From: Vicinamibacterales bacterium
GTDB taxonomy: Bacteria > Acidobacteriota > Vicinamibacteria > Vicinamibacterales > G965250185
Reading direction: 5' to 3'
Assembly: GCA_965250185.1 (NCBI GenBank)
Contig: OZ252293.1
Span: 2,247,862-2,311,861 of the forward strand
DNA length: 64,000 bases
The position numbers and the translations under genes are program-made. This document shows, one piece after another, positions 8,952 to 61,540 of the stretch (its first letter is position 1; every line of letters starts with the position of its first letter). The notes beneath the pieces are model-generated. The model did no database searches, was not told the DNA's origin, and saw only the letters and a list, made by a program, of their open reading frames with translations.

Positions 8952-9114
8952 GCCTCTAGGGCCTCCTTCGCGAGTAGCCCGAGTGTACCCTCGATGCGAC
9001 TCCTGGGGTGCGTGTGGGCGGTAGTCTACTCGATTCGGGTCCCGGGCTTCCCACACGCCATGGGAGACTACAATTACTCGGGCGGTGCTCGAGAGTTTCA
9101 AGGAGGGTCCGCGG

Positions 9115-13065: not shown

Positions 13066-13131
13066 GAGGTCGAGGAACCACCAATCACCACCCACCATCC
13101 ACCACCCACCATCCACCACCCACCAATCACC
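13024..13131. repeat. G-rich heptamer arm (13024-13058) followed by CCACC-rich array (13077-13131) abutting the ATG at 13133
   Basis: ggatcgggggccgaggatcagggatcggggaccgg ... ccaccaatcaccacccaccatccaccacccaccatccaccacccaccaatcaccc. Confidence 0.85.
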
Positions 13132-20996: not shown

Positions 20997-21072
20997 CCAT
21001 TCAACACTCAGCATTCGACATTCAGCATGCAGCATTCAACATTCAACACTCGACATTCAACATTCGACATTC
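20997..21072. repeat. (CATTCRA/CATTCAG-like) heptamer array between two minus-strand genes, abutting the stop at 21073
   Basis: ccattcaacactcagcattcgacattcagcatgcagcattcaacattcaacactcgacattcaacattcgacattcc. Confidence 0.9.
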
Positions 21073-27960: not shown

Positions 27961-28815
27961 GTGGACCCAACCGCCTATCTCGCACGCATCGGCTACGACG
28001 CGGACCCCGCGCCGTCCCTGCGGACGCTTCGCCGCCTCCACCGCGACCACCTCACCCACATCCCGTTCGAGAATCTCGACATTCATCTCGGTCGCTCGAT
28101 CGGCTTGGATGCGCCGTCGATGTTCGACAAGATCGTGACACGCCGGCGCGGGGGATTCTGCTATGAGCTCAACGGCCTCTTCGCCTGGCTGCTGGAGCAG
28201 CTGGGCTTCGAGGTCAGCCGACACTCGGCCGGCGTGATGACGGACGGTCGCGTCGGGCCCGAGTTCGATCACCTGGCGCTGCTGGTCCAGCTCGACGAAC
28301 GCTGGTTGGTCGACGTGGGGTTCGGACAGTCGTTCCGCGATCCGCTGCGGCTCGTCGATGGCATCGACCAGATGCAGGGCGACGACCGCTATCGTTTGGT
28401 CCAGACGAAGCAGGGCGTGTGGCTGACCGGGCGGCGCGGCGACGAGCCGTGGGCGACGCTCTACCGGTTCAGCCTCACCGCGAGCACGCTCGCAGAATTC
28501 AGCGACATGTGCCGACACCACCAGGAGTCGCCAGACTCGTCGTTCACCCAACAGCGTGTTTGTTCGATCGAGTCGACCGGGGGCCGCGTGACCCTGGCGG
28601 GAATGACGCTGATCGAGACCGTCGGCGACGAGCGGCGCGAGACGCCAATCGGCTCGGATGGAGAGTACCGACAGATCCTGCTCGAGCGGTTCGGGGTCGA
28701 GCTCGGGGGCGCCGAGTGGAGGCGCCGAGTAGAGGGGGGACGGCGCGGCGCAGGAGCCTCAGGAACTCGGGGCTCGGGGCTCAGGGCTCAGCGTTCGGAC
28801 GGCGAGTCCGGCTGA
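27961..28815 (+). CDS. arylamine N-acetyltransferase (NAT) family
   Basis: YLARIGY, IPFENLDIH and catalytic-Cys motif RRGGFCYELN. The last ~35 codons read into the heptamer array. Confidence 0.85.
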   Translation: MDPTAYLARIGYDADPAPSLRTLRRLHRDHLTHIPFENLDIHLGRSIGLDAPSMFDKIVTRRRGGFCYELNGLFAWLLEQLGFEVSRHSAGVMTDGRVGPEFDHLALLVQLDERWLVDVGFGQSFRDPLRLVDGIDQMQGDDRYRLVQTKQGVWLTGRRGDEPWATLYRFSLTASTLAEFSDMCRHHQESPDSSFTQQRVCSIESTGGRVTLAGMTLIETVGDERRETPIGSDGEYRQILLERFGVELGGAEWRRRVEGGRRGAGASGTRGSGLRAQRSDGESG

Positions 28816-28857
28816 CTGCGTGATCCCGTCAAGCCCTAAGCCCTGATCCCTGATCCC
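28756..28857. repeat. inverted heptamer-arm element (GGGCTCA arm / 38-nt centre / TCCCTGA arm)
   Basis: gcctcaggaactcggggctcggggctcagggctcagcg ... agccctaagccctgatccctgatccc. The arms are reverse complements. Confidence 0.85.
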
Positions 28858-33239: not shown

Positions 33240-35045
33240 CTACTGAATCAGCACGTTCGCGGTCGCCAGCTTCTCGCCGACCTCGAACAGGTTCCCCCAG
33301 ACGATGTTGCGTGCGTCACCCCAGACGATGTGGTTTGCCCACGCATCGATGTTCTGGTAGACCGTGTCGCCCCACACGATGTGGTCGCCCCACACGATGT
33401 GCTGCGCCCAGGTGTACGTCTGGCCGTTGAGCGCCGTGCTCGGGTTCACCGGCCCAGTCAGCCACCACTGGTCGGCCGGCGCCGACGGGTCGATGGCGCG
33501 TGCCAGCTCGATCGCGCCAACCGGATTGAGCGTCCCCGTGCCCTGCGTCAGCGCGTCGTGCGGCACACCCTGCGCGTCGGACAGCGGAATGGCGCTGAAC
33601 TGCAGGATCGCCTTGACCGCGTTCGGCGTCAGATTGCGGTTAGCTTCGAGCAGCAGCGCCACCGCGCCGCTCGTCACGCCCGTGGCCATGCTCGACCCAC
33701 TCAGCACCAGGTAGTCGTGCCCGCCCGTGCCCTTCACACTGGTCGCGATTCCCGCCAGGTAGCTCGACTCCTGCGTCTCGGACGGCAGCCGATGGCCAGG
33801 CGCCACGAGATCCGGCTTCGCGAACCCGTCGTACCATGTCGGCCCGCGCGAGCTGTATGCCGCCACATGGTCGTCGGTCAGCTGGGTCGTCCCCTTCGTG
33901 TCGACCGAGCCCACCGTGATCGCCGACGGCGCGTTGCCCGGCGACGTCAGGCCGGCGTAGCCGACCTCGCCCGTCTCCGGGTTCTGACCGATGTTCCCCG
34001 CCGAGGCCACCACGACGATCCCCGCCCGCACAGCCGCCTCGACCGCCTGCACCAGTGGGTCCGATGCCGCCGGCTCGAAGATCGGATGCCCCAGGGACAG
34101 GTTGATGACGTCGATCCCGAGTGCGGCTCGATTCTCGACCGCGAACTCGACCGCCGCGATCACGTCGCTCGTCCGGCCCGACCCGTTCTCCTTGAGCACC
34201 CGCAGGCTGATCAGCCGTGCGTCCTCGGCCATCCCGCGATACTTGCCTCGCGAGTGGTCGCCGCTGCCTGCGATCAGACCAGCCACGTGCGTCCCGTGGC
34301 CGTAGGCGTCGCTCGGGCTCACGGCCACCGGCCCGCCCGGCACCGTGAAGTCGTAGGCATGTGTCAGGTTGAAGGCTGACGAATCTCCCACGATGCCAGA
34401 GTCGATCACCGCGACCCCGATCCCCTGGCCACTGCCCATCGCCGACGTCAGCCCGAAGATCTCCCGCAGCCGCAGGTCACTCGAGCTCGTCGATGTCGAG
34501 CCAGACGACGAGCCGCCGCGCTTCTTCTTCCGCGCGGCCGTGACCTTGGCGTCGATGGACATCGACTCGATGTTCGGATCTGCCGCCAGCGCCGCCAGGT
34601 CGTCCGCGTGGACGTTCACCGTGACGGCATCGAGCAGCGCGTGCTCCGTCTGCACCACGCCGTCCCGGGCCGCCACTGCATCGACGACGCCGGCCATGTT
34701 GGCCTCGGAGGCCTGGATGATCACCTTCACCGACCGGCGCGTCGCGGTCGTCTGCGCGAGCTCTGTCACCAGGGCTTCGTCCAGCTTCGCCAACTGGGTA
34801 GCATTCAAGTCGGACACCGTCGGCTGAGTCGTCGTCGTCTGGGTCGTCTGGGTCGACGTGCCCTTCTTCTCCTTCTTCTTCTTCTTCGCTTCCCCGACCG
34901 TCGGGGTCAGCAGCAGACCAATCGTCAGGAGCGCGGCCAGGCCGCGTCGCCAGTTGGGAGTCATCCTGTCCAGTCCCTTCGTCATTGTTCGCTCCGTCGC
35001 GTTCAAACTTGGCTTCGTCGTCATGTCGTTTATGTTGGATGTCAT
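33240..35045 (-). CDS. S8 family serine peptidase (subtilase) with C-terminal xVWGD repeats
   Basis: Catalytic D (VAVIDSGI), H (HGTHVAG), S (SGSSMATG). AGGAGG 5 nt upstream of ATG 35045. C-terminus HIVWGDHIVWGD...HIVWGDARNIVWGN. Confidence 0.9.
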   Translation of the reverse strand: MTSNINDMTTKPSLNATERTMTKGLDRMTPNWRRGLAALLTIGLLLTPTVGEAKKKKKEKKGTSTQTTQTTTTQPTVSDLNATQLAKLDEALVTELAQTTATRRSVKVIIQASEANMAGVVDAVAARDGVVQTEHALLDAVTVNVHADDLAALAADPNIESMSIDAKVTAARKKKRGGSSSGSTSTSSSDLRLREIFGLTSAMGSGQGIGVAVIDSGIVGDSSAFNLTHAYDFTVPGGPVAVSPSDAYGHGTHVAGLIAGSGDHSRGKYRGMAEDARLISLRVLKENGSGRTSDVIAAVEFAVENRAALGIDVINLSLGHPIFEPAASDPLVQAVEAAVRAGIVVVASAGNIGQNPETGEVGYAGLTSPGNAPSAITVGSVDTKGTTQLTDDHVAAYSSRGPTWYDGFAKPDLVAPGHRLPSETQESSYLAGIATSVKGTGGHDYLVLSGSSMATGVTSGAVALLLEANRNLTPNAVKAILQFSAIPLSDAQGVPHDALTQGTGTLNPVGAIELARAIDPSAPADQWWLTGPVNPSTALNGQTYTWAQHIVWGDHIVWGDTVYQNIDAWANHIVWGDARNIVWGNLFEVGEKLATANVLIQ

Positions 35046-35054
35046 GACGGCCTC

Positions 35055-37050
35055 CTAGTACTGGACGTGAGTCGCGCCGGCGTCACCACTCAGCTCGCCC
35101 CACACCAATCGGTCCGCATCCGTGACCTCGCCCCACACGAGCCGGTCACCCCAGATCACGCGATCGCCGTCCACGTAGCCGACCAGGCTGCTGCCCCAGA
35201 CGATGCGGTCGCCCCAGACCAGCCGGTTGCTCATCACGAGGCTCTCGCCCCACATGATCCGGTCGCCCCACACGAGGCGGTCGCCCCAGATGACCCGCTG
35301 GTCGAACGCCGGGTCGTTGACGTAGATCTGGTCGCCCCAGACCAGCCGGTCGCCCCACACGAGGCGCCGCGCCCAGGCCTGCACCTCGCCGCCGATCACG
35401 CTCGTCTCGAGCGTCATCTCGGTGCGCCACACCTCGCCCTCGGGCACGCGTGGGTCGAGCGTCATCGCCAGGGCGATCGCCCCGTCGGCATTGACGGCCC
35501 CGGCACCCTGCGTCAGCTCGTCGTAGCCCGGCAACTCGGTCGCCGTGTACTGCAGGATCGCCTTGACGGCGTTGGGTGACAGCGGCGGGTCCACCCGGTA
35601 CTGCTTGTCCACCTCGACGCCGAAGGCCTGGGCATTGGCGTCGAGGATCAGGGCCACCACCCCGCTCGTCACCGCCGCCGCCATGCTCGTCCCGCTCAAC
35701 TTCAGATACTGCTGGTTCCCCAAGCCGAACATGACGTCGAGTTGCAGGTTCGGGTTCTGCAGAAACAGCGAGCTCGCCTCGCTTCAGGGCATAGAGCTGC
35801 GTCCCGGGCGCCACCACGTCCGGCTTGGCGTAGGCGTCATACCAGGTCGGCCCCCGCGAGCTGAACGCCGGCACGACGTCGTCGCTCCGGCTGGCCGTGC
35901 CCATGATGTCCACCGCCCCGACCGTGATGGCCGACGGCGCATTGCCCGGCGACGTGATGCCGGCATAGCCGACCTCGTCGGTGTCCGGGTTCTGGCCGAT
36001 GTTGCCGGCCGAGACCACCACCACCAGCCCGGCCCGCACGGCCGCCTCGACGGCCTGCACGAGTGGGTCGGTCGCCGCCGGCTCCATGATCGGATGCCCC
36101 AGCGAGAGGTTGAGAATGTCGAGGTCGAAGTGGTCCTTGTTCGCCACGGCGAACTCGATGGCCCGGATGACATCGCTCGTGCGGCCTTCGCCGTGGGCGT
36201 CCAGGACCTTGAAGCCGTACAGCTTCACGTCCGGCGCCACGCCGCGGAACTCGCCCATCGACGAGCGGGCCGCGTTGGCGATCAGGGCCGCGACGTGCGT
36301 CCCGTGCCCGTAGTCATCGTAGGGGGCGGTCGCCACCGGGGTGTCGCCCTGCGTGAAGTCGTAGAAGCCATGGACCCGCCGGAGGTCCTGCTTGTCGAAC
36401 TCGAGCCCCGAGTCGATCACCGCCACCCGGATGTTGCCCTGCCCATCGAACATGGCGAGCTCATCGTCGAGCCCGAGGGCGGTCAGCATCAGGTTCGAGT
36501 CGACGATCCCGAGGCTCGCGAAGTCGATTGCGTCGGGGCTCGGCTCCGGAGCAAATGGCGCCCCGAGGTTGGTCCCGTCGTTGTTGTTGATGGTGCCGGA
36601 GGGCGTGGTGTCCGTGTTCTTGTTCTTGCCCTTGGCTTTGCCCTTGCTCTGGCCGGCGGCCCGGACGATCGCATCGGCCGAGACGCGCATCACGTCGGGA
36701 TGCGCGGCCAGCCCGGCCAGGTCGTCACCGTGAACGACGGCGCTCAGGGCGCCGATCGATGCATGGTTGCCCTTGACCACATTGCCGTGCGCCTCGAGCT
36801 CGGTCTTCAAGGCCTGGCGCCGACCCGACTTGGTCGTGATGATCACGCGCTGGGCCTGCGTCTCGTGGTTGGCGACCTTGGCCCGTAGCCGCGTGTCGAG
36901 CTTCGTCAGGTCACGCTCGACGACCGGGGCCGAAGCCTCGGTGGCGGGGCGAGCCGGCGCCTTGGCCTTCTTTTTCTTGGCCTCGGCGGGCAGGCCCACC
37001 AGGCCGGTCATCAGTCCGACGACGACGACGTGTCGAATCAGTTGGTACAT
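35055..37050 (-). pseudogene. S8 family serine peptidase paralog, frame broken near 35781-35786 (or sequencing error)
   Basis: D (VAVIDSGL) and H (HGTHVAA) are in ORF 35146..37050. The catalytic-Ser part (SGTSMAAAVTSG) and 11 xVWGD-type repeats are in ORF 35055..35732, in the +1 frame. The junction APGTQLYALK / SEASSLFLQNPN aligns with the paralog. Confidence 0.75.
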
Positions 37051-37482
37051 CTCTCGTTTCCCTCTCTACTTCGCGACCGGACCCGTTCATGTCTGGCCGC
37101 GAATTACGGTCGGGTGATAGTCGCTTCACCCGTCGCCTGCCGTAGAGCACGAGGGATGCCAGATGGGTCGATATCTCATAAGGCATTGATATGAGACCAC
37201 TTACCGGAATTCGCAGTGCCGCTGATCGGGCCTGGCTCGTCGCGATGTGCCTCGTTGCTGGGCACCTGCTGGCCCGGGCCACGCGCGGGGCGCGGATTGT
37301 GGAGAGATTCAGGGAATCAGCCGGTGCCTCATCGTGGGACACGGGGCGGCGGAACGAGGCACGCGCGGCTAGCGCGGGACGAGCGAGAGTCGCGTCGAGC
37401 AACGAAAATCGAAAATCAGTACGCAGATTCGTGCAGCGGTGTGCGGTTTTTGCAGGGCGGTGCACGATGAATGGCACCGCTT

Positions 37483-37603
37483 CTTACGTCGCGCGACGGA
37501 TGACACGCGTCGTACGTAGCGCGACGGGGACAGTGCGTCGTACGTAGCGCGACGGTGACCGTCGTACGTAGCGCGACGGTCACCGTCGTACGTAGCGCGA
37601 TGG
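37483..37603. repeat. tandem palindromic units (CCGTCGTACGTAGCGCGACGG, ~24-nt period, 4-5 copies)
   Basis: cgtcgtacgtagcgcgacgg recurs at about 37508, 37535, 37559 and 37583. Each unit has a 6-bp stem CCGTCG/CGACGG. Confidence 0.85.
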
Positions 37604-37665
37604 CTTCAGCCGAGTGGATCTCGCACCAGTGTGACTCTGGCGCTTGGCTGAAGCCGCGCGCTACG
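37591..37665 (+). repeat. REP-like palindromic element (full copy)
   Basis: cgtagcgcgatggcttcagccgagtggatctcgcaccagtgtgactctggcgcttggctgaagccgcgcgctacg. Termini CGTAGCGCG/CGCGCTACG and inner GGCTTCAGCC/GGCTGAAGCC are inverted repeats. Confidence 0.85.
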
Positions 37666-37679
37666 GATTCGAGGGAAGT

Positions 37680-39119
37680 CTAAACCCTGCCGAAGGCGAC
37701 CGATCCGGTGAGGTCGTGCTCTCCGGTGGCAATCATCCACGAGACGGCCTTGGACGGCAGGAACGACTCGCGAATGAATCCACGGTTCGCGACCTGCCGA
37801 ACCTCCCACTCCATCCGGTCGCGATAGACGCGGAAGATTCGATACGAGTTCGGCCACTCGACGAATGCGGCGTTCTGGATATGGGTAAGACCGTCGACGA
37901 CGTTGACTTCGTCCCAGTGGTCGTGGCCGTTGAGGGTGGCGAAGACGTTGGGGGCCGCACGCACGATGTCGAGCACGGCCTCCTTGCCGAGTTCGCTCCA
38001 CGTCGAGACGGCACCCCGGTTGTACGGGGCGTAGTGCCAGACGACCACGGTCGGCGTCGTGGTATCGGCCGCGAGCGTCTCGCGCAACCAGGCCCGCTTG
38101 TGCGGCTGCATCACCGGTTCCTCGATCTCGACGTCGAGCACGACGAACCGCAGTGGCGGCTTCATGAAGCTGTAGTCCAGCTGGCCACCGGGGAAGTGGT
38201 CGGCGAGTAGTTCGCGGGCATCCGGTCGTGAGGTCACGAGATAGCGATCATGGTTGCCGATGCAACCGTAGACCGGGAGCGGCTGCGACTTCAGGACGCC
38301 AGCCATCAGGGCGAACTCTTCCCTGAGCGCTCGCTCGGTCATGTCCCCCGCGTGCATGACGAAATCGATGCCCTCGGCCGCCAGCGCGTGCAGCGTCCGC
38401 GCGAATTCCGGAGCCGTGGCGGCGCCCATCTTCCGATTCATCCAGTCCTCGCGGCCTTCGAAGCGCAGATGGGTGTCTCCGATCAGCGCGAACCGGTACA
38501 GTGGAGATTCGACGGATCGCTCGCTGGCTTCGAGCGTGAGGGAAACGAGACGGCCACCAGTGCGAAAGTGGGGTCCCGCGACGGTCAGGTAGTGGCGCCC
38601 CTCGGGCAGCAGCCACTCGCCGAGCGCGACTGTCCGGGGCGGTTCGCCGCCCGTCACCACCGGCGCCGGGTCGGTCACCTCGTCGATGCCCCACTCCGGA
38701 GCCGAGACCATCGGCGCGCTGACGAGCGTTGTGTCCGAGAGTACCGAGACCCGGAGGCCCGGTCTCAGGTCGGGAGGCGCCTCGAGCTCGATCTGGCCGG
38801 TGACGTACGTTGCCTGCGCCACGTCGACCGCGAACACTGCGAGACCATCTGGTGTGATACTCGCACCGGAGGACCGGGCGGCTTCGACCTCTGCGTTGGT
38901 GAGACCGGACGCGAGCGCGGCGGAAGAACCGTCGAGGCGCACTCGCGATCCGGGTCGCACCGACACGGCCCGTCGGTCCGCATCGTCGCGCAGCCGACGC
39001 TCGAGCTCGGGGTAGACGTCGATCGGCGTGCCGGCGCCCGAGAGCGACGTCTGACCAGTCAGCCCAGCGCCGAGGCCGAGCGCCATCGACGTCAGAAAAT
39101 CGCGCCGGGTCGGAGACAT
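37680..39119 (-). CDS. Tat-secreted metallophosphoesterase (calcineurin-like)
   Basis: MSPTRRDFLTSMALGLGAG twin-arginine signal. GDTHL, HAGDMTE, GNHD and GHDH phosphoesterase motifs. Confidence 0.85.
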   Translation of the reverse strand: MSPTRRDFLTSMALGLGAGLTGQTSLSGAGTPIDVYPELERRLRDDADRRAVSVRPGSRVRLDGSSAALASGLTNAEVEAARSSGASITPDGLAVFAVDVAQATYVTGQIELEAPPDLRPGLRVSVLSDTTLVSAPMVSAPEWGIDEVTDPAPVVTGGEPPRTVALGEWLLPEGRHYLTVAGPHFRTGGRLVSLTLEASERSVESPLYRFALIGDTHLRFEGREDWMNRKMGAATAPEFARTLHALAAEGIDFVMHAGDMTERALREEFALMAGVLKSQPLPVYGCIGNHDRYLVTSRPDARELLADHFPGGQLDYSFMKPPLRFVVLDVEIEEPVMQPHKRAWLRETLAADTTTPTVVVWHYAPYNRGAVSTWSELGKEAVLDIVRAAPNVFATLNGHDHWDEVNVVDGLTHIQNAAFVEWPNSYRIFRVYRDRMEWEVRQVANRGFIRESFLPSKAVSWMIATGEHDLTGSVAFGRV

Positions 39120-39232: not shown

Positions 39233-39311
39233 CCACCATTCGACATTCCCATTCGACATTCCCATTCGACATTCCCCATTCGACATTCTCCATTCGACAT
39301 TCTCCATTCAC
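39233..39311. repeat. (CCATTCGACATT-like) 12-13-nt tandem array x6, abutting the stop at 39312
   Basis: ccaccattcgacattcccattcgacattcccattcgacattccccattcgacattctccattcgacattctccattcacc. Confidence 0.9.
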
Positions 39312-44424: not shown

Positions 44425-44527
44425 GGAGGGCGAGTGGGGCAAGTGGGGCAAGTGGGGCGAGTAAGGCGAGGGAGGCGAGTGGGGACACACCGCGATACCC
44501 GTGCTCGCTCTCCCCACTTGCCCTATT
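44425..44527 (-). repeat. nonamer-arm/core element, copy 1 (inverted orientation)
   Basis: gggagggcgagtggggcaagtggggcaagtggggcgagtaaggcgagggaggcgagt + core ggggacacaccgcgatacccgtgctcgctctcccc + acttgccctattc. Confidence 0.9.
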
Positions 44528-45294
44528 CACAGTTGTTCCCGATTCCGAAGCCCATCATCGGGGTGATCCACCTGCCGCCGCTGCCGGGGTGGCCCGGGTC
44601 GCCCGGAATCGATGGCGTCATCGCCCGGGCGCTCGCTGACCTGGCCGCCCTGGAAGCCGGCGGAATCGAGGCGGTGCTCGTCGAGAACGAGCACGACCGG
44701 CCGCACGAGGTGTGCGCCAGCGCCCGCACGGTCGCGGCCATGACGCGCGTGACCGACGAGGTCGTGCGCGCAGCTCGAGCCGCGGTCATTGGCGTCGAGA
44801 TTCTGCTGAACGATCCGAAGGCGTCCGTGTCGGTTGCGAGCATGACCGGGGCCCGGTTCGTCAGGACCGATTACTTCGTCGACCGGATGACTCGCCCCGA
44901 GTACGGCGGCGAGATGGAGATCGACCCTGCCGGGTTGCTCGCCCATCGCCACGCGATCGGCGCCGTCGACGTCTTGATCCTGGCCGACATCCAGGTCAAG
45001 TACGCCACGATGCTCGAGCCGCGGCCCCTCACCGAGTCGGCGCGCGCGGCAGAAGCATGCGGGGCCGACGCAATCGTCGTGACCGGTTCGGTGACGGGAG
45101 AGCCGCCACGGCACGAGGAGCTCGCGGCCGCGCGCGCCGGCGCCGGCGGGCTGCCAGTGCTGATCGACAGCGGCCTCGATGCCACCAACGCCGCCCAACT
45201 CCTCGAGGCCGCCGACGGTGCCATCGTCGGGACCAGCCTCCAGGGCCCGGATGGGGTCGATGCGCACAAGGTGCGTGAACTCTTGAAGGGCTAG
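44518..45294 (+). CDS. BtpA/SgcQ family TIM-barrel protein
   Basis: IIGVIHLPPLPGWPGSPG and VLVENEHDRP are typical of BtpA. Start uncertain (TTG 44518 or 44536); the ORF-track start 44434 lies in the repeat array. Confidence 0.8.
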   Translation: MPYSQLFPIPKPIIGVIHLPPLPGWPGSPGIDGVIARALADLAALEAGGIEAVLVENEHDRPHEVCASARTVAAMTRVTDEVVRAARAAVIGVEILLNDPKASVSVASMTGARFVRTDYFVDRMTRPEYGGEMEIDPAGLLAHRHAIGAVDVLILADIQVKYATMLEPRPLTESARAAEACGADAIVVTGSVTGEPPRHEELAAARAGAGGLPVLIDSGLDATNAAQLLEAADGAIVGTSLQGPDGVDAHKVRELLKG

Positions 45295-45575
45295 TAGGGC
45301 TTAGTGGGGCGAGTAGGGCCAGGAGGGCAAGTGGGGCGAGTGGGGTGAATAGGGCCAGTAGGGAGAGCGAGCCCGGGTGTCGCGGTGTCGCCCCACTCGC
45401 CCCACTAGCCCCACTTGCCCTCCTGGCCCCACTCGCCCCACTAGCCCCACTCGCCCCACTAGCCCCACTCGCCCTACTCGCCCTACTCGCCCCACTCGCC
45501 CCACTCGCCCCACTCGCCCCACTCGCCCCACTCGCCCCACTCGCCCCACCTGCCCTACTCGCCCTACTAGCCCCC
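45295..45575 (+). repeat. nonamer-arm/core element, copy 2 (8 G-rich units, core, 20 C-rich units)
   Basis: G arm 45295-45360 (NNAGTRGGG units). Core gggagagcgagcccgggtgtcgcggtgtcg. C arm 45391-45570 is 20 x CCCCACTCG-like units. Confidence 0.95.
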
Positions 45576-45579
45576 AAAT

Positions 45580-46392
45580 ATGCACGTTGTCTGCGTCGGT
45601 GACTGCGGCGTCGATCGCTACGTGAACCTCGGACTGGACCGCCCGGGGGGCATCACGTTGAATTTCGCGATCCATGCGCGGGACTGTTTGCCGGGGACGG
45701 ACGTGGTCACGATCGTGACGGCGCTCGGTCTGGACGACGAGGCGCAGCTGGTGCTCGAGGCGATCGAGCGGTTCGGGATTCCCAGCTGCCTGACCCGGAT
45801 CGAGGGTCGGACACCGGTTCAGTACATCGATCAGGAGCCATCCGGTGAGAAGCGCTTCGTGCGCTACGACGAGGGTGTGCTGGTGACGTACCGGCTCGAC
45901 GCTAGGGCGCGCCGGCTGGTTCAGGAGAGCGACCTCCTGGTGACGAATGTCTACCGGCAGGTCGAGCGTTTCTTCGACGAACTGATCGAGATCCCGTCGC
46001 GCGGTCTTCGTTTCGTCGACTTCCTCGACCTGTCTGACTATACGGATGGCGCGGCTTTCGTCGAGCGCTACATCGAGCGATTCGATATCGGTCTGTTCGG
46101 GCTGGCGTCCGACGCCGACGTCCGAATCGACGCGCTGGAGCGGCTGGCGCGGTCGCACGGCAAGCTCTTCATCGTCACGCTCGGTCCTGGCGGAAGCCTT
46201 GCGCTCGGTGGGTCGACGCGCGTGCGCTGCCCGGCGCACCATGTGGAGCCGGTCGTGGACACGACCGGCGCCGGCGACGCCTTCGCGGCAGGCTTTCTCG
46301 CGAGCTACATGGAATCCCGCGACGTGGTCCAGGGTCTGGATGCCGGGAGCCGACAGGCGGCCAAGGTCGTCCAGATGGTCGGAGGGTTTTGA
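45580..46392 (+). CDS. PfkB family carbohydrate kinase
   Basis: MHVVCVGDCGVD... and C-terminal DTTGAGDAFAAGFL ATP-binding motif. Confidence 0.85.
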   Translation: MHVVCVGDCGVDRYVNLGLDRPGGITLNFAIHARDCLPGTDVVTIVTALGLDDEAQLVLEAIERFGIPSCLTRIEGRTPVQYIDQEPSGEKRFVRYDEGVLVTYRLDARARRLVQESDLLVTNVYRQVERFFDELIEIPSRGLRFVDFLDLSDYTDGAAFVERYIERFDIGLFGLASDADVRIDALERLARSHGKLFIVTLGPGGSLALGGSTRVRCPAHHVEPVVDTTGAGDAFAAGFLASYMESRDVVQGLDAGSRQAAKVVQMVGGF

Positions 46393-46397
46393 GAGGA

Positions 46398-46618
46398 TCC
46401 GTTCAAGGTTCAATTGTTCAAGCGTTTCAAGAGTTCGAGGTGGCCGGTGGGGAAGAATGGCGGGCATCTTCTATTATTCGGGGGTAAAATCAAAGAAGAG
46501 GCGATGCCAGCGCCTGAGCACCCGAGGGTTCGACGGCCAGAGGGTAAGTGAAGTTGCGCGAGCGACTGCGAGCGCCTCCGCGAACCCTTGAACCGTTGAA
46601 CCCTTGAACTTTTGAACG
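46398..46618 (+). repeat. heptamer-arm element: (GTTCAAG)n arm, 141-nt centre, (CTTGAAC)n arm
   Basis: tccgttcaaggttcaattgttcaagcgtttcaagagttcgagg ... gaacccttgaaccgttgaacccttgaacttttgaacg. Confidence 0.9.
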
Positions 46619-47246: not shown

Positions 47247-47413
47247 CGAGTAGGGCAAGGAGGGCTAGGAGGGCGAGTAGGGCAAGTGGGGAGAGTGAAC
47301 CCGCGTGTCACGGTGCCGCCCCACTCGCCCCACTCGCCCCACTCGTCGCCCTTGCCCTACTCGCCCCACTCGCCCCACTCGTCGCCCTTGCCCTACTCGC
47401 CCTCCTAGCCCCA
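47247..47413 (+). repeat. nonamer-arm/core element, copy 3
   Basis: cgagtagggcaaggagggctaggagggcgagtagggcaagt + core ggggagagtgaacccgcgtgtcacggtgccg + 10 CCCCACTCG-like units. Fills the whole spacer between two convergent stops. Confidence 0.9.
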
Positions 47414-47415
47414 CA

Positions 47416-50916: not shown

Positions 50917-52443
50917 GTGCCCTGGAGCGTTCTCGACATCTTTGCCTTCGTCGCCTTCCTCGTCACCGTGGTGGCGGTGTCGCTGTACGCCTCTCGGAAA
51001 GAGGAGAGCGGCGAGGACTACTTCCTGGCCGGTCGGGGTCTGAGTTGGTGGCTCATCGGCTTCTCGCTCATTGCGTCCAACATCTCGACGGAGCACTTCG
51101 TCGGGATGGCGGGTTCGGGCTTCGGCGCGATCGGTCTGGCCGTCGCCAGCTACGAGTGGGTGGCGGCCGTCACGCTGGTGGGGGTGGCGCTCGTCTTCCT
51201 GCCGGTGTTCCTGCGCCTCGGCATCTACACCATGCCGGAATTTCTGGAGCACCGGTACGGACCGGTGCCCCGGACGATCATGGCGGTCTACATGATGGTC
51301 GCCTACGTCGCGGTGGCGATCGCGGCCGTGCTCTATTCGGGGGCGATTGGTTTGCAGGCGATCTTCGGCCTCGACCTCTTCCTCGGCATCTGGCTCATCG
51401 GGTTGATCGCCGGCGCCTACACGATCTACGGGGGGCTCAAGGCTGTCGTGTGGTCCGATCTGATGCAGGGGTCGGCGCTCCTCGTGGGAGGCGCGATCGT
51501 GACGGGCATCGCGCTCACCCGGGTCGGCGGCTTGGGCGCGTTTCTCGCGCAGAATCGCGACAAGCTCCACATGGTCTTGCCGGCGGATCATCCCGATCTG
51601 CCCTGGACCGCCCTGCTGTTGGGGATCTGGATCCCGAACATCTTCTACTGGGGCTTCAATCAGTTCATCACGCAGCGGACGCTGGCGGCGCGCAGCCTGG
51701 CGGCCGGTCAACGTGGCATCATGTTCGCCGCGCTGTTGAAGCTCGTGATCCCATTCATCATCGTCTTTCCAGGCATCATGGCGTTCCAGCTCTACGCTGA
51801 ACAGATCACCAATGGTGACCAGGCGTACCCCATCCTGATCCGCAACGTGGTGCCGGTCGGGCTGCGCGGCCTGATGTTCGCGGCGCTGTTCGGCGCAGTG
51901 ATGAGTAGCCTCGACTCGATGCTCAACTCCGCTTCGACGATCTTCACCATCGACATCTACCGGCGGTTCGTGGCGCGCGCCGCCGCGCCGCGCGATCTCG
52001 TCCGTGTCGGTCGGTTGAGCACGGCCGCCTTCGTCCTGATCGGATGTCTCATGGCGCCCCTGCCGGCGAATTTCGAGGGCGTCTTCGAGTACATCCAGAT
52101 GATCTGGGGCTTCATTTCGCCGTCCGTCGTCGCGGTGTTCGTGTTCGGTCTCGTTGTCAAACGCGCACCGACGAGCGCGGCGACGGCCGCGCTCCTGCTC
52201 GGCGTCCCGATCTACGGGCTCTTGCTGTGGGGATTGCCGGGGGTGGCGTTCCTGAATCACATGGCCGTGACGTTTTGTGTCCTGGTGACGATCATGGCGG
52301 CTATCACCGTCGTCGCGCCACTTGCGGAACCATGCACATTCGAGCGGCGCAGCGATGTCGACCTGACGCCAGATCCCCTGGCGACCTCACTCGGCGCCGT
52401 CGTCGTGGTGGTGACGCTGGTGCTGTACGTGGTGTTCTGGTGA
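50917..52443 (+). CDS. sodium:solute symporter (SSF family)
   Basis: GEDYFLAGRGLSWW, polytopic, SSF-typical pattern throughout. Confidence 0.9.
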   Translation: MPWSVLDIFAFVAFLVTVVAVSLYASRKEESGEDYFLAGRGLSWWLIGFSLIASNISTEHFVGMAGSGFGAIGLAVASYEWVAAVTLVGVALVFLPVFLRLGIYTMPEFLEHRYGPVPRTIMAVYMMVAYVAVAIAAVLYSGAIGLQAIFGLDLFLGIWLIGLIAGAYTIYGGLKAVVWSDLMQGSALLVGGAIVTGIALTRVGGLGAFLAQNRDKLHMVLPADHPDLPWTALLLGIWIPNIFYWGFNQFITQRTLAARSLAAGQRGIMFAALLKLVIPFIIVFPGIMAFQLYAEQITNGDQAYPILIRNVVPVGLRGLMFAALFGAVMSSLDSMLNSASTIFTIDIYRRFVARAAAPRDLVRVGRLSTAAFVLIGCLMAPLPANFEGVFEYIQMIWGFISPSVVAVFVFGLVVKRAPTSAATAALLLGVPIYGLLLWGLPGVAFLNHMAVTFCVLVTIMAAITVVAPLAEPCTFERRSDVDLTPDPLATSLGAVVVVVTLVLYVVFW

Positions 52444-54266
52444 TGCGCCCGGTCACGTCGATCAGCGACGGCGGGACGGACCCGGCGCGAGCCGCCTGGC
52501 AGACGCTGGCGTATGTCGTGCTGCTGGTGACGTTGATTCTCGGATCCGCCCCGCGCGAGGAGGGCGATTCCCACGAGTACGTCGCGATGGCGCTCCAGAT
52601 GGCCAGCATGGAGGGACCGGCGCTGACACCGCCAGAGATCGACTCGATTCGAGCGGAGCTGGAGCCGTTCATCACCATCCCGTTCCGGGCGACCGTACCC
52701 GCGAGCGGGTTCTACTACTTCCCACACTTCTGGTTCTACCCGCTCCTCGCCGTTCCTGGCGTTGCGCTCACGCGGGCGCTCGCCCTGCACCCCGTCTACG
52801 GTTTCACGCTGCTGAATCTGGTGCTCCTCGGTGGGGCCGCCTGGGTGCTGTTCCGGCGGCAGCACTGGACCGTCGCGCTGCTGGTGCTCGTCAGCCCGAT
52901 TGTGTGGTGGATCGACAAGGCGCACACGGAGGTGTTCACGTTCTCGCTGCTCGCGATCGCGATGACGCTGGCATCGGCTCGGCCAGGCATCGCGATGATC
53001 TGCGCGGGTGCCGCCGCGACACAGAACCCGCCGATTGCATTGGCGATTCCGCTCATTGCGCTGGCAGCCACGCGCGGGCAGTGGCGACGGCTGGGGGACC
53101 GAACCGTCTGGGGTGGCGCGGCCATCGGGATGCTCCTGGCGTTTCTGCACCCCCTGTACTACATCCTGACCATCGGCAGCCCGACGGCGCTCGGTACGCG
53201 CGGCGTACTTCCGAGCGCCCAGGAGCTCGGGGCGGTACTCTGGGACCCGAACCTCGGCCTGCTCGTGGCCTTCCCGCTCTTCGTGCTGGTGGTCGTCACG
53301 GTCGTCATCGCCCTCCTGATCAGGGAGCCGATGCGGCTGGGCGAACCCGTGGTGCTCCTGTCGCTCGGCCTGGCGGCCCTGTTCCTCCTGGCGTTCTCGC
53401 AGGCGCCGAACATCAATTCGGGCGCCACGCTGAGCATGTCCCGGTACGGTCTCTGGCTCATCCCGCTCGCGATTCCTGTGCTTGGCCATGCGCATGCCGT
53501 GTTCGGCCTCCGGCTGGTACGATGGGCGGGCGTCGTCGCCATCGTGTCGGCAGTGTCCTCGGTCGCGATCTTTCGACCGAGTGTCTTTTCTCGGTACCTG
53601 CAGCCGACCGCGGCCGCCGAGTGGCTGTGGACCCGGTTTCCGCAGGTCAACAATCCGATCCCCGAGATCTTCGCCGAGCGGGTGGCGCACGGCGAGGCCG
53701 TGACCGCTCCGATCGGGCTGCCGACGTGCGAGAAGGTACTGCTGATCGGCTCCGCCGAGCGCGGTATGTGGCCAGTGCCATGCGCACCGGAGTCGGTCCC
53801 CGACGAGTGTCTCGAGCCTGGGGCCGCCTGCTACGCGAATCGATCCGGCGAGCGATATGCGTTCAAGCCAGTCGATCGTCGGGAGTATCACTTTTTCGAA
53901 CCGTCGAGCGATCGCGTGTGGCCCCGATCGGCCGAACCGACCGTTGGCGCCGTGCTCGAGAACCTTGCCTGGTGGGAGCTCGAGCCGCCGTCGGATCGAG
54001 AACCCAATCCGAGTATGGTGAGGGCCGTGTACGGCGCCGCGGGGACCCGCACCCTGGAGGCGGCCGACCGACTGTTCCTGGTCCTCGCTCGACCCGCCCC
54101 CGGGGCGAGCGTGACGCTGCGCCCTCCGATGGCCCTCGAGGGCGGTGTCATCGACCTGGTCTCGCCCGGTGTCCTGAAGCCGCTGGCGTATCGAGGTGCG
54201 CCTGGCGAAATATGGAACGTCGACATCGACGGCTCGGATGGCCTCGTCATTCTCTTTCTGCAGTGA
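52443..54266 (+). CDS. large polytopic membrane protein (607 aa), unknown function
   Basis: ATG overlaps the symporter stop (TGATG). At least 10 hydrophobic helices then a ~200-aa soluble C-terminal region. No family recognised with confidence. Confidence 0.7.
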   Translation: MRPVTSISDGGTDPARAAWQTLAYVVLLVTLILGSAPREEGDSHEYVAMALQMASMEGPALTPPEIDSIRAELEPFITIPFRATVPASGFYYFPHFWFYPLLAVPGVALTRALALHPVYGFTLLNLVLLGGAAWVLFRRQHWTVALLVLVSPIVWWIDKAHTEVFTFSLLAIAMTLASARPGIAMICAGAAATQNPPIALAIPLIALAATRGQWRRLGDRTVWGGAAIGMLLAFLHPLYYILTIGSPTALGTRGVLPSAQELGAVLWDPNLGLLVAFPLFVLVVVTVVIALLIREPMRLGEPVVLLSLGLAALFLLAFSQAPNINSGATLSMSRYGLWLIPLAIPVLGHAHAVFGLRLVRWAGVVAIVSAVSSVAIFRPSVFSRYLQPTAAAEWLWTRFPQVNNPIPEIFAERVAHGEAVTAPIGLPTCEKVLLIGSAERGMWPVPCAPESVPDECLEPGAACYANRSGERYAFKPVDRREYHFFEPSSDRVWPRSAEPTVGAVLENLAWWELEPPSDREPNPSMVRAVYGAAGTRTLEAADRLFLVLARPAPGASVTLRPPMALEGGVIDLVSPGVLKPLAYRGAPGEIWNVDIDGSDGLVILFLQ

Positions 54267-54310: not shown

Positions 54311-54874
54311 ATGCAACGTGTTCTCGCAATCCTGACGGCCATGGCCCCGGTCATCATGGTCACCATGGTCACCATGGTCACCATGGTCCCCCTCGCCCAG
54401 ACCGTCCCTGACTTCTCCGGCACCTGGACCATCGATCGGGACCGGAGCGACGACCCTCCGCGCATGGGCGGAGGCGGTCGCGGAGGCGGCGGCGGTGGCG
54501 GGCGTCGGGGACCTGGCGCGGGAGGCCCGATGGGCGGATTGATGGAACTCGCCGACACGGTGGTCATCGAGCAGACCGAGATCGAACTGATTCTCCTGAT
54601 GGGAGACCGGCGAGTCGAGCTGCGCCTCGACGGTGCCGAGAGCGCGAACGGTGGACCGCGAGGCGACGTCGTGACCACGTCGCGATGGGAAGGCGTCGCC
54701 CTCTTCACGACCGGTCGCGTCGAGATGTCGACGCCCCGGGGCGAGATGACGATCGAGACGGAAGAGATTCGCTCGCTCAGCGAGGATGGCGTCGCGATGA
54801 CGGTCAAGACGACCGTGAGGACGCCGCGGGGCGAGCGAAGCTTTACGAGGGTCTACGCAAAGACCGTTGAATGA
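54311..54874 (+). CDS. secreted hypothetical protein with Gly/Arg-rich linker
   Basis: Signal MQRVLAILTAMAPVIMVTMVTMVTMVPLAQ, GTWTIDRDRSD, then MGGGGRGGGGGGGRRGPGAGG and a beta-rich C-terminal half. Confidence 0.65.
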   Translation: MQRVLAILTAMAPVIMVTMVTMVTMVPLAQTVPDFSGTWTIDRDRSDDPPRMGGGGRGGGGGGGRRGPGAGGPMGGLMELADTVVIEQTEIELILLMGDRRVELRLDGAESANGGPRGDVVTTSRWEGVALFTTGRVEMSTPRGEMTIETEEIRSLSEDGVAMTVKTTVRTPRGERSFTRVYAKTVE

Positions 54875-59455: not shown

Positions 59456-61396
<1,941 letters not shown>

Positions 61397-61540
61397 TGCA
61401 CCGTGGTCTGAAAACCGTGAGCCTCGAACCGTGAGCCCCGAACCGTGAGCCCCAAGCCGAGAGCCCAAAGCCGAGAGCCCAGAACCCAGAACCCCGACCC
61501 CCGAGCCCCGACCCCCGATCCCCGATCCGGAGGATTACCC

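What the first reader, a model, noticed from the sequence alone, without database searches (positions are those of the whole stretch)
45295..45575. BtpA-PfkB spacer is built entirely from 9-nt repeats: 8 G-rich units, a unique ~30-nt core, then 20 C-rich units
From the BtpA stop (TAG 45292-45294) to 4 nt before the PfkB ATG (45580), the only non-repetitive sequence is a core at about 45361-45390. The left arm is 8 units of NNAGTRGGG. The right arm is 20 units of CCCCACTCG and close variants, counted from 45391 to 45570. The arms are reverse complements, so single-stranded DNA or a read-through transcript could fold into a long imperfect hairpin with about 12 C-rich units left over. The GGGG runs spaced by 5 nt also meet the formal G-quadruplex rule. 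The 9-nt period keeps all frames open, which explains the LAPLAP, PTRPTR and GASGAS pseudo-ORFs in the track. I do not recognise this as REP/BIME, ERIC, CRISPR or a classical MITE.
Basis: seen in the sequence. Interest (0 to 1): 0.7.

Follow-up and report, generated by a model that had tools for sequence, protein, structure and literature searches.

The report
Inverted 9-nt repeat arrays between genes
The whole gap between two genes is filled by a fast-changing, non-coding DNA repeat that can fold into a long hairpin; this kind of repeat was described in other bacteria in 2015 with no known function, and here it has a 9-base unit and a small conserved centre that is flipped in close relatives.

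Summary
Positions 45295-45366 hold 8 G-rich 9-mers, about 45364-45390 is a core, and 45391-45570 holds 20 C-rich 9-mers. The arms are complementary and the element is non-coding.

The core is not unique. Two more elements with a homologous core lie within 3 kb, at 44425-44520 and 47247-47414. Each fills a gene junction from end to end.

- Relatives at about 95% DNA identity have arrays at the same three junctions, with other unit counts and variants.
- At the two junctions where they keep a core, it is in the opposite orientation.
- They also carry IS insertions in the C arm.
- A relative with 75% identical PfkB has only a 34-nt palindrome of 2+3 units and no core.
- A 64% relative has a 4-nt gap.

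About twenty other 7-9-nt arrays in the window mostly follow one rule: the 5' end of the G-rich strand abuts an ORF. This matches the quadruplex-prone G-rich repeats and convergent inverted pairs that Rehm et al. (2015) described in Xanthomonas and Nostoc, whose function is unknown.

I file it as a new variant of that kind. It most likely grew in place by slippage. It probably acts, if at all, as an RNA structure inside the operon. It is not a terminator, REP, MITE, CRISPR or RNA gene.

The parts
45295..45366 (.). Element B, G-rich arm: 8 units of 9 nt (GTRGGGCNA register). It starts directly after the BtpA stop, and the stop lies inside a unit-like GGGCTAGTA.
   Evidence: G 53%, C 11%, 8 GGG runs, G4Hunter 1.31
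45364..45390 (+). Element B core. The conserved 22-nt motif AGCGAGCCCGGGTGTCGCGGTG is at 45366-45387, in + orientation, with a small internal stem GCGA/TCGC.
   Evidence: CM 71.8 bits on +, 17.1 on -
45391..45570 (.). Element B, C-rich arm: 20 units of CCCCACTCG and variants. Units at 45490-45543 are six perfect copies, which suggests recent expansion. Four units carry CTAG.
   Evidence: C 61%, G 12%, 20 CCC runs
45297..45448 (.). Inner palindrome of element B. Arms 45297-45355 and 45390-45448 are 59 nt and 88% complementary, and share the rare unit CCAGGAGGG/CCCTCCTGG at mirrored positions.
45571..45579 (+). CCCCCAAAT, the only sequence between the last full unit and the PfkB ATG (45580). It has no Shine-Dalgarno-like motif.
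44425..44484 (.). Element A, G-rich arm (6-7 units), starting 1 nt after the stop of the DUF5916 gene (44424).
44485..44520 (-). Element A core (motif on the - strand, 44488-44509) plus one C unit, CCCCACTTG. This segment replaces the ancestral BtpA start region (ATGTCCCGTTTTACT in relatives).
   Evidence: 65.8 bits on -
47247..47291 (.). Element C, G-rich arm (about 5 units), starting directly after the DUF4126 stop (47246).
47292..47318 (+). Element C core (motif 47294-47315, + orientation). Its stem is GTGA/TCAC, a compensatory change relative to B.
   Evidence: 69.2 bits on +
47319..47414 (.). Element C, C-rich arm (about 11 units with a 36-nt higher-order period), ending 1 nt before the stop of the convergent ADI-like gene (47416).
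44533..45294 (+). BtpA-family gene (PF03437). The start is uncertain: TTG 44518, TTG 44533 or GTG 44434.
45580..46392 (+). PfkB-family kinase gene (PF00294), intact here.

Best explanation
WHAT IT IS. Element B is a non-coding, hypervariable pair of inverted short tandem repeat arrays, with the G-rich arm first and the C-rich arm second. It is one of three paralogous elements that share a ~22-nt core and sit in three neighbouring gene junctions. It is a 9-nt-unit variant of the G-rich, quadruplex-prone intergenic repeats and their 'convergent inverted pairs' described in Xanthomonas and Nostoc.

HOW IT AROSE (inferred). A short palindrome of 2+3 units at the end of btpA grew in place by replication slippage and unequal exchange of units and unit blocks. 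Recombination or template switching between the two arms inverted the core.

WHAT IT DOES (inferred, least certain). The element is transcribed as part of the DUF5916-btpA-pfkB message. There the G arm pairs with part of the C arm, or folds as a G4, directly after the btpA stop codon. This structure would protect the upstream cistron's 3' side and damp expression of pfkB without abolishing it. The surplus C-rich, G-poor units form an unstructured leader that runs up to the pfkB start codon. Only the G-first orientation is tolerated at gene ends, which would explain the orientation rule. Changes in unit number would tune the effect.
For: SHOWN
- Architecture and complementarity. Strong folding on both strands.
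- Three copies share a strand-specific core, and no other copy occurs in 638 kb of held sequence.
- Each copy runs from one gene end to the next, with gaps of 0-9 nt.
- It is non-coding. Element C is 175, 236, 262 and 242 nt in four genomes; the three relatives differ from one another by 6, 20 and 26 nt, and two of those differences are not multiples of 3. Some units there are 8 nt long. Four of six frames contain stops.
- There is a growth series at the same junction. The gap is 4 nt in a relative with 64% identical PfkB. It is 34 nt, 2 G units plus 3 C units with no core, in a 75% relative. It is 285 nt here. Relatives at ~95% DNA identity have 10 G units, a core and at least 5 C units.
- Higher-order periods of 18, 27 and 36 nt and a run of six perfect units are typical of slippage or unequal exchange.
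- The core is inverted at both B and C in the relatives, while the left arm still aligns in forward orientation.
- No sigma-70-like promoter or hairpin-plus-T-run terminator lies in any of the three spacers, and the relatives' 4-nt gap implies ancestral co-transcription.
- About twenty other 7-9-nt arrays in the window were examined. In about 17 of 24 arrays the 5' end of the G-rich strand lies within 25 nt of an ORF end.

LITERATURE. The same positional rule, convergent pairing, length variation between related species, transcription and in-vitro G4 formation are reported in PMC4692102. Heptamer arrays directly upstream of start codons are reported in PMC4679880.
Against: - No expression data exist. 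Every functional statement is inference.
- Arm complementarity is not strictly kept. In the relatives' element C the left arm is (GGGCAAGGA)n and the right arm is mostly (CCCCCTCG)n. The fold is still better than shuffles but weaker, z = -5. Strand composition (G-rich, then C-rich) may therefore matter more than the hairpin.
- Pure in-place growth does not explain how a homologous core reached three separate junctions, or why the core is conserved while the arms turn over.
- In the relatives pfkB is frameshifted and its upstream C arm carries the IS insertions. The junction may simply be under relaxed selection.
- The unit differs from the published GGGNATC heptamer, so class membership rests on architecture and position only.
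Confidence: 0.5

Rival explanations
1. Neutral by-product. A lineage with slippage-prone replication or weak repair accumulates short-unit arrays wherever they are harmless, that is exactly between gene ends. The hairpin, the G4 potential and the core flip are side effects with no role in expression.
For: Turnover is extreme between genomes at ~95% identity, including loss of detailed arm complementarity in element C. Arrays are absent from the 75% and 64% relatives at the same junctions. Unit sequences vary across the window: 7-, 8- and 9-mers of unrelated sequence. IS elements are tolerated inside the array. The published class has no demonstrated function.
Against: Neutral slippage alone does not predict the strict G-first polarity relative to ORF ends (PMC4692102). 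Generic hairpins in the window show no such polarity, 17 versus 15. The core is conserved (1 change in about 30 nt) while the arms turn over. The rare unit variant is mirrored in both arms of B.
Confidence: 0.3
2. Non-autonomous mobile element (MITE- or REPIN-like). The core plus repeat-built terminal inverted arms is mobilised in trans and has hopped locally into three junctions; the arrays are multimerised transposase-binding sites.
For: There are three paralogous copies with a homologous core. Formerly tight junctions are now filled. Core A differs from core B at about 5 of 34 positions, so it is not a recent local copy, and it is present here but absent in the ~95% relatives, where only the G arm exists. 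GTAG-tagged REP-like palindromes exist in this lineage at window 37510-37600 and L004 3780-3890.
Against: No target-site duplication or sharp element ends can be recognised. No copy lies outside the 3-kb cluster in 64 kb plus the relatives' flanks. Pattern scans of the core found no copy in GTDB species genomes (strict pattern only), JGI metagenomes or IMG/VR. The 75% relative has a core-less 2+3-unit intermediate at the same site. Arm lengths and unit variants differ among copies. No transposase or RAYT was seen among the roughly 25 window genes scanned.
Confidence: 0.12
3. DNA-level element. G4, i-motif or cruciform formation in the chromosome affects replication, supercoiling or recombination, or recruits a nucleoid protein. 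The core is a protein-binding site, and its inversion is a phase-variable mini-switch.
For: G4Hunter is 1.3-1.6 on the G arms and -1.6 to -1.7 on the C arms, with 10 of the window's 21 formal G4 motifs in these three elements. The ssDNA hairpin has z = -11. Core orientation differs between lineages at two loci. G4 and i-motif formation in vitro is shown for the related heptamers.
Against: No recombinase gene was seen nearby. The 24-34-nt centre has no promoter-like sequence. All three assemblies of the relative show a single orientation. Any long inverted repeat is expected to invert its spacer occasionally without this being a function.
Confidence: 0.08

Closest known systems
G-rich quadruplex-forming intergenic SSRs (GGGNATC type) and their convergent inverted pairs in Xanthomonas and Nostoc (Rehm et al. 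2015, PLoS One, PMC4692102)
   Same: - Head-to-tail units of 6-9 nt, each with a G tract, 2-26 units per array, mostly intergenic.
- The G-rich strand lies next to its 5' neighbouring ORF: after the stop on the coding strand, before the start on the non-coding strand.
- There are 70-75 pairs per Xanthomonas genome, with one array on each strand in convergent orientation.
- Unit number differs between related species while the locus and type are kept.
- Function is unknown.

The window's 7-mer pair at 61359-61529 even has the GGGNATC-like unit.
   Different: The unit here is a 9-mer (GGGGCGAGT / CCCCACTCG). The arms are much longer and asymmetric (8 versus 20 units). The element fills the whole spacer. 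The pair carries a conserved ~22-nt core shared by three loci and inverted in close relatives, which that paper does not report. G4 formation has not been tested for this unit.
REP / BIME / REPIN elements of proteobacteria, including GTAG-tagged REPs (PMC3116915, PMC3733652; details from general knowledge)
   Same: They are extragenic, sit between genes of an operon or between convergent genes, form hairpins and are transcribed with the flanking genes. Proposed effects are mRNA 3'-end protection and partial attenuation. They can be IS targets.
   Different: The REP unit is itself a 20-40-nt palindrome with a conserved GTAG/CGTC head, present in tens to hundreds of dispersed copies and linked to a RAYT transposase. 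Here the unit is a non-palindromic 9-mer repeated head to tail. GTAG/CTAC is present in only 2 of 8 and 4 of 20 units. Only three copies are known.
Heptamer arrays next to start codons: cyanobacterial STRR sequences (from general knowledge) and TAACTGA repeats of Beggiatoaceae, Cyanobacteria and Bacteroidetes (MacGregor 2015, PMC4679880)
   Same: These are short-unit arrays in intergenic DNA, many within a few nucleotides upstream of a start codon. Copy number varies. A post-transcriptional role (binding of S1, Csp or CsrA) has been suggested but not shown.
   Different: They are direct arrays only, AT-richer, with no complementary partner array and no core.
BOX elements of Streptococcus pneumoniae and mycobacterial MIRUs (from general knowledge, not tested here)
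   Same: They are modular intergenic repeats with a variable number of tandem internal units. They are located within operons, form hairpins (BOX) or overlap the flanking stop and start codons (MIRU), and are used as VNTR markers.
   Different: Their units are 40-100 nt, not 9 nt. BOX has unique inverted ends around a repeated middle, which is the reverse of the layout here.

Membership tests
G-rich intergenic SSR / convergent inverted pair (Rehm et al. 2015) | Head-to-tail units of 6-9 nt, each carrying a G tract of at least 3 | tested here: met
   8 + 20 units of 9 nt; 8 GGG runs in the left arm and 20 CCC runs in the right arm
G-rich intergenic SSR / convergent inverted pair (Rehm et al. 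2015) | Intergenic, with the 5' end of the G-rich strand within about 50 nt of the neighbouring ORF (after the stop on the coding strand, before the start on the non-coding strand) | tested here: met
   The G arm starts 0 nt after the BtpA stop. The G-rich minus-strand arm starts 9 nt from the PfkB ATG. The same holds for elements A and C and for about 17 of 24 arrays in the window (rule).
G-rich intergenic SSR / convergent inverted pair (Rehm et al. 2015) | Two arrays close together, one on each strand, in convergent orientation | tested here: met
   G-rich on + then G-rich on -; 6 of 6 complementary array pairs in the window are G-first
G-rich intergenic SSR / convergent inverted pair (Rehm et al. 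2015) | Unit number varies between related genomes while the locus and type are kept | tested here: met
   Window versus L001-L003 at all three junctions; element C is 175, 236, 262 and 242 nt
G-rich intergenic SSR / convergent inverted pair (Rehm et al. 2015) | Unit consensus GGGNATC / GGGGA(C/T)T | tested here: not met
   The unit is GGGGCGAGT, a 9-mer. Other arrays in the window (61359-61529, 13024-13058) do have GGGNTCA/GGGGATC units. It is therefore the same kind but not the same motif family.
G-rich intergenic SSR / convergent inverted pair (Rehm et al. 2015) | G-quadruplex formation of the repeat oligonucleotide in K+ | not testable with these tools
   Only the formal motif and the G4Hunter score (1.3-1.6) could be computed
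REP / BIME / REPIN | The repeat unit is itself a 20-40-nt imperfect palindrome | tested here: not met
   The unit is a non-palindromic 9-mer; only the two arrays together are palindromic
REP / BIME / REPIN | Conserved GTAG or CGTC tetranucleotide at one end | tested here: not met
   GTAG/CTAC is in 2 of 8 and 4 of 20 units; most units read GTGG/CCAC
REP / BIME / REPIN | Tens to hundreds of dispersed copies and a RAYT gene in the genome | tested here: inconclusive
   Three copies in 64 kb, all within 3 kb, and none in the other held sequence. No RAYT was seen among the genes scanned, but the whole genome was not available.
MITE | Defined ends with terminal inverted repeats flanked by a target-site duplication | tested here: inconclusive
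   The arms act as long inverted repeats, but no sharp ends or duplication can be recognised, and the arrays merge into the stop codon and leader
MITE | Many near-identical copies at unrelated sites; clean empty sites in relatives | tested here: not met
   Copies differ in arm length and unit variants and are clustered. The 75% relative has an intermediate 2+3-unit state rather than an empty site.
Intrinsic (Rho-independent) terminator | GC-rich hairpin followed directly by a T/U run | tested here: not met
   No terminator-like site in the three spacers. The C arm is followed by CCCCCAAATATG.
Inverton (phase-variable invertible DNA) | Inverted repeats flank a segment found in both orientations | tested here: met
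   The core is + in the window and - in L001-L003 at loci B and C (72 versus 17 bits by strand). This is a difference between lineages, not within one population.
Inverton (phase-variable invertible DNA) | The invertible segment carries a promoter or part of a gene, and a site-specific recombinase is encoded nearby | tested here: not met
   The segment is 24-34 nt with no promoter-like match. No recombinase was found among the neighbouring genes.
CRISPR array | Direct repeats of 23-50 nt separated by unique spacers of similar length | tested here: not met
   The units are contiguous 9-mers without spacers
Any Rfam RNA family | Match at or above the family's gathering score | tested here: not met
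   0 matches in the whole window. With the E-value threshold there are only sub-threshold eukaryotic miRNA-precursor hairpins, on both strands.

The most novel reading that the evidence does not exclude
The conserved core and its repeat-built arms form a self-contained structural module. It spreads between gene junctions and flips its centre without a dedicated recombinase, using the arrays themselves as recombination substrates. Core orientation and arm length together would then set how strongly neighbouring cistrons of an operon are uncoupled. This would be a recombinase-free, tunable and reversible intra-operon switch, and it would give the unexplained G-rich repeat pairs of Xanthomonas and Nostoc their first function.
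Probability: 0.08. Interest if true: 0.75.

Novelty: new variant of a known kind. Interest (0 to 1): 0.4.

Why it matters
Short-unit (6-9 nt) repeat arrays at bacterial gene ends are widespread, and none has an assigned function. This locus offers an unusually clear natural series at one junction: a 4-nt gap, then a 34-nt mini-palindrome, then a 285-nt array pair, then an IS-invaded pair. It also shows strain-level length variation and a flipped centre.

That makes it a good test case for three questions:
- How do such arrays arise?
- Why are they always oriented G-first relative to ORFs?
- Do they change operon expression?

It also has practical consequences. Such arrays create false ORFs, displace start codons (BtpA here), break short-read assemblies and attract IS elements. 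If the element is only slippage debris, it still documents a recent lineage-specific burst of repeat growth in an uncultured high-GC soil-type bacterium.

Tried and rejected
- **Coding repeat or small ORF:** rejected. There are stops in 4 of 6 frames, length differences that are not multiples of 3, and 8-nt units in relatives.
- **Assembly artefact:** rejected by three independent assemblies of a close relative.
- **Rfam:** nothing at gathering threshold. At E-value threshold there are only generic miRNA-precursor hairpins. No tRNA or tmRNA.
- **Promoter or intrinsic terminator in the spacers:** none.
- **Strict core pattern in GTDB genomes:** 0 hits. The pattern was too strict, since it would have missed the relatives' own cores, so this scan says little.
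- **Protein-based scan of GTDB genomes:** The organism could not be named more closely.
- **Degenerate core pattern:** in JGI metagenomes, one chance hit inside a coding region. In IMG/VR, none.
- **Three-unit arm pattern in IMG/VR:** one hit, a coding PTR repeat at the end of a 771-aa ORF, unrelated.
- **Pseudo-ORF peptide search across the core:** it found only GRVG-type pseudo-ORFs from unrelated taxa, without the core. One of them, L094, shows the same GGGCGAGTR unit starting in the stop codon of an unrelated gene.
- **General G-first polarity of all hairpins in the window:** not found, 17 versus 15. The polarity is specific to the arrays.
- **IS3 targeting of arrays:** the second IS3 copy in L002 lies about 60 nt away from an array, so there is no clear targeting. 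The IS630-type end does sit at a CTAG of the C arm.
- **Exact-protein look-up of the window's PfkB:** not on record, so the source contig itself could not be retrieved.
Full report
**1.

Read in a 9-nt register from 45295, the BtpA-PfkB spacer has five parts:
- eight G-rich units: TAGGGCTTA, GTGGGGCGA, GTAGGGCCA, GGAGGGCAA, GTGGGGCGA, GTGGGGTGA, ATAGGGCCA, GTAGGGAGA;
- a non-repeated centre at about 45364-45390;
- twenty C-rich units from 45391 to 45570, of which eleven are exactly CCCCACTCG and the rest differ at 1-3 positions;
- nine bases, CCCCCAAAT;
- the PfkB ATG at 45580.

Tandem Repeats Finder scores the right arm at 20.8 copies, 88% matches and score 276, the highest in the window. The flanking ORFs are a BtpA-family protein (stop 45292-45294) and a PfkB-family kinase.

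The arms are reverse complements. The best register is 45297-45355 against 45390-45448, 59 nt at 88%. In that register a rare unit variant (CCAGGAGGG / CCCTCCTGG) sits at mirrored positions. As RNA, 45280-45590 folds at -166 kcal/mol (z = -9.1). As single-stranded DNA the inner palindrome folds at -73.9 kcal/mol (z = -11). Formal G-quadruplex motifs are present on the + strand in the left arm (2) and on the - strand in the right arm (5).

Only two of six frames are fully open across the spacer. The core is not unique (next section).

**2. It is one of three local copies**

The same layout, with a homologous centre, occurs twice more within 3 kb.

| Element | Coordinates | Junction |
|---|---|---|
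| A | 44425-44520 | DUF5916 gene stop to BtpA start |
| B | 45295-45570 | BtpA stop to PfkB start |
| C | 47247-47414 | DUF4126 gene stop to the stop of the convergent ADI-like gene |

The shared motif is AGYGARCMCGSGTRTCRCGGTG. It contains a 4-bp stem that reads GCGA/TCGC in A and B and GTGA/TCAC in C. That is one compensatory change.

A covariance model built on the five distinct copies finds exactly these three sites in the window. B and C are on the + strand and A is on the - strand. Scores are 66-72 bits on the matching strand against 17-22 bits on the other. Apart from the orthologous sites in the close relatives L001-L003 (section 3), the 638 kb of held sequence gave only weak partial matches with E of 0.01 or more.

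Each element runs from one gene end to the next with gaps of 0-9 nt. None of the three spacers contains a sigma-70-like promoter or a hairpin-plus-T-run terminator. Rfam has no match at gathering scores. At relaxed thresholds only eukaryotic miRNA-precursor models match, on both strands, which simply reflects a long hairpin.

**3. Comparison with relatives**

The window's own PfkB is not in the protein collection. A homologue search gave relatives at three distances.

*Relatives at ~95% DNA identity.* Three metagenome assemblies (L001-L003, one a 4.47-Mb contig) are about 95% identical to the window in the flanks.
- They carry arrays at the same three junctions, with different unit numbers and unit variants.
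- Element C measures 175 nt here and 236, 262 and 242 nt in the three assemblies. Two of the three length differences among the assemblies are not multiples of three, and some units there are 8 nt long. This rules out a coding role and an assembly artefact, and shows VNTR-like behaviour.
- At both B and C the core has the opposite orientation in these relatives. The left arm still aligns in forward orientation, and each locus keeps its own core variant; B differs at 1 of about 30 positions. So the centre, or a segment with break points inside the arms, has been inverted in place.
- Element A has no core in the relatives. Here, the core plus one C unit replaces the ancestral BtpA start (ATGTCCCGTTTTACT).
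- In the relatives the C arm of B is interrupted by an IS3-family element, inserted at the core/arm junction, and by an IS630-type remnant ending at a CTAG of a unit. Their pfkB carries a +1 frameshift.

*Relative with 75% identical PfkB (L004).* The BtpA-PfkB spacer is 34 nt: two G units and three C units forming a small palindrome, with no core. Junction A has no array at all.

*Relative with 64% identical PfkB (L090).* The BtpA-PfkB gap is 4 nt, and the DUF4126 and ADI-like genes overlap.

*Named relatives.* The nearest named relatives are Vicinamibacterales and Vicinamibacteria MAGs at 52-58% PfkB identity. They have no arrays at the locus.

The elements are therefore recent, lineage-specific fillings of formerly tight junctions. 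For B there is a visible growth series.

**4. The wider pattern in the window and the literature**

The window (66.6% G+C) holds about twenty more arrays of 7-9-nt units at gene ends. Several form G-first inverted pairs:
- 61359-61388 with 61413-61529 (GGGCTCA and GGGGATC type);
- 28766-28857;
- 46401-46441 with 46582-46617.

In about 17 of 24 arrays the 5' end of the G-richer strand lies within 25 nt of an ORF end. The mRNA is then G-rich just after a stop codon and C-rich and G-poor just before a start codon. Ordinary hairpins in the window show no such polarity, 17 versus 15.

Rehm et al. (2015, PMC4692102) reported this rule for GGGNATC-type repeats in Xanthomonas and Nostoc:
- 2-26 units per array, about 90% intergenic in the xanthomonads;
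- the G-rich strand next to the 5' neighbouring ORF;
- 70-75 'convergent' inverted pairs per Xanthomonas genome;
- unit numbers that differ between species while the type is kept;
- transcription, and G4 and i-motif formation in vitro;
- no function found.

MacGregor (2015, PMC4679880) described heptamer arrays a few nucleotides upstream of start codons in other phyla and suggested a translational role.

The present element has the architecture and position of that class. It has a different unit (a 9-mer), much longer and unequal arms, and a conserved centre, which that paper does not report. A peptide search with the pseudo-ORF found similar 9-nt arrays in unrelated metagenome contigs. One of them (L094) has the same GGGCGAGTR unit starting inside the stop codon of an unrelated gene. 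None has the core.

**5. Most likely mechanism**

*Shown.* The structure, the complementarity, the paralogy, the exact fit between gene ends, the rapid change in unit number, the core inversion and the absence of promoter or terminator consensus.

*Inferred origin.* The arrays grew in place by slippage and unequal exchange. Support comes from the higher-order periods of 18, 27 and 36 nt, the run of six perfect units at 45490-45543, and the 4, 34 and 285 nt series. The core was inverted by recombination or template switching between the long inverted arms, which is expected for any such repeat.

*Inferred function.* Neither spacer A nor spacer B leaves room for a promoter, and the ancestral gap was 4 nt. 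The DUF5916-btpA-pfkB genes are therefore most likely still co-transcribed through the elements, and the element cannot be a full terminator.

The G arm would pair with part of the C arm, or form a G4, directly after the btpA stop. By analogy with REP/BIME hairpins (general knowledge), this should protect the upstream part of the message and reduce expression of pfkB without abolishing it.

The twelve surplus C units (61% C, 12% G) would remain single-stranded up to the start codon. They could act as an unstructured leader or as a Rho loading site.

I propose that the G-first rule reflects a filter. G-rich leaders would block initiation, and C-rich trailers would cause polarity. This is untested.

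*Points against a strict hairpin function.* In the relatives' element C the two arms have drifted to units that are no longer exact complements, although the region still folds better than shuffles (z = -5). The pfkB of those relatives is frameshifted, with IS elements inserted in the C arm just upstream.

**6. Rivals**

- **Neutral slippage debris** (about 0.3). It explains the turnover and the variety of units, but not the polarity or the conserved core.
- **MITE- or REPIN-like mobile element** (about 0.12). It would explain three copies with one core and the presence/absence difference at A. However, there is no target duplication, there are no dispersed copies, there are no hits in three public collections (one scan was too strict), and an intermediate state exists at the same site.
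- **DNA-level role, or a true invertible switch** (about 0.08). It is not excluded but has no supporting gene or promoter.

**7. Verdict**

This is a real and well-defined feature. It is best filed as a new variant (9-nt unit, shared invertible core) of the already described but functionally unexplained class of G-rich short-unit repeat pairs at bacterial gene ends. Interest is moderate.

The mechanism of origin is reasonably supported. The function is inferred and needs expression data. The unexplained points are why the core is conserved, how it reached three neighbouring junctions, and why it is flipped at both loci in the sister lineage (notebook).

Noticed in passing
window 46401-46441 and 46582-46617 (centre 46442-46581); L002:10590-10860: This is another G-first inverted array pair, with 8-nt units GTTCAAGG / CCTTGAAC. 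It flanks a ~140-nt centre between the PfkB stop and the DUF4126 ATG. The centre is conserved in the ~95% relative, where most 8-mer units are replaced by a nested ~31-nt inverted repeat (CCCGCCTTCGCCAAGGCTACGGCGGGCAGGC and its complement).
   Followed up: partly
window 61359-61388 / 61413-61529; 28766-28857; 13024-13058: These are 7-nt arrays of the GGGNTCA / GGGGATC type, i.e. the published GGGNATC class. Two form G-first inverted pairs with small hairpin-containing centres. The centre of the 28766 pair is conserved and not flipped in L002:561-650.
   Followed up: partly
window 5850-5911, 13076-13131, 20998-21072, 39236-39309: These are G-poor 7-nt arrays: CACCATT, CCACCAC, CATTCAA, CCATTCG/ACATTCT. 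In three of the four the array ends 0-2 nt from a start or stop codon, so the mRNA leader is G-free or the trailer on the other strand is G-richer; for 5850-5911 the gene start is unresolved. The unit mix at 39236 differs in L001 at the same junction.
   Followed up: partly
window 18085-18117 (minus-strand gene) and 54349-54388: Perfect in-frame 9-nt arrays (CGCCACCAT x3.7; GGTCACCAT x4.4) lie inside what look like N-terminal signal peptides (MVTMVTMVTMV). They are possible length-variable signal sequences.
   Followed up: no
window 37478-37600; L004:3780-3890: These are tandem GTAG-tagged REP-like palindromes (GTAGCGCGACGG-TGA-CCGTCGTAC x4-5), that is, a BIME-like cluster. The window copy lies in a ~1.9-kb stretch (35783-37680) where my crude GC3 map found no gene. 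The 75% relative has classic GTAGGGCCCGAGC...GCTCGGGCCCTAC REPs at the junction that carries a 7-mer array in the window.
   Followed up: partly
L001-L003 about 7700-9745 (orthologue of window 45391-45570): An IS3-family element (ends TGACCTGACCCCC... / ...GGGGGGCGGGTCA) is inserted at the core/C-arm junction. A 5'-truncated IS630-type element ends at a CTAG of a C unit. A second copy of the IS3 element lies at L002:728.
   Followed up: partly
L002:9790-10603 (orthologue of window 45580-46392): pfkB of the ~95% relatives has a +1 C insertion (CCC to CCCC) about 200 nt into the gene. It is called as two ORFs of 89 and 200 aa in all three assemblies. This is either a pseudogene or a shared homopolymer error.
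   Followed up: yes
window 44485-44535: Element A overwrote the ancestral BtpA start codon. The gene must now start at TTG 44518, TTG 44533 or GTG 44434. The last of these would translate the whole repeat as an N-terminal extension.
   Followed up: partly
window 51081-53576: This segment (sodium:solute symporter plus an unknown 612-aa gene) is present in the window, L002 and L003 but absent from L001. It is a strain-level indel.
   Followed up: no
L094:186-320 (JGI metagenome 3300086403): In an unrelated 65%-GC contig, about 15 units of GGGCGAGTA / GGTCGGGTR start inside the stop codon (CAG GGC GAG TAG) of a different gene, with no C arm. The 9-nt unit type is therefore not confined to this lineage.
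   Followed up: partly
window 33366-33409 and 35193-35288: An 18-nt periodicity (GTCGCCCCACACGATGTG) lies inside the minus-strand subtilase-family genes. It is most likely a coding repeat, not related to the intergenic arrays.
   Followed up: no
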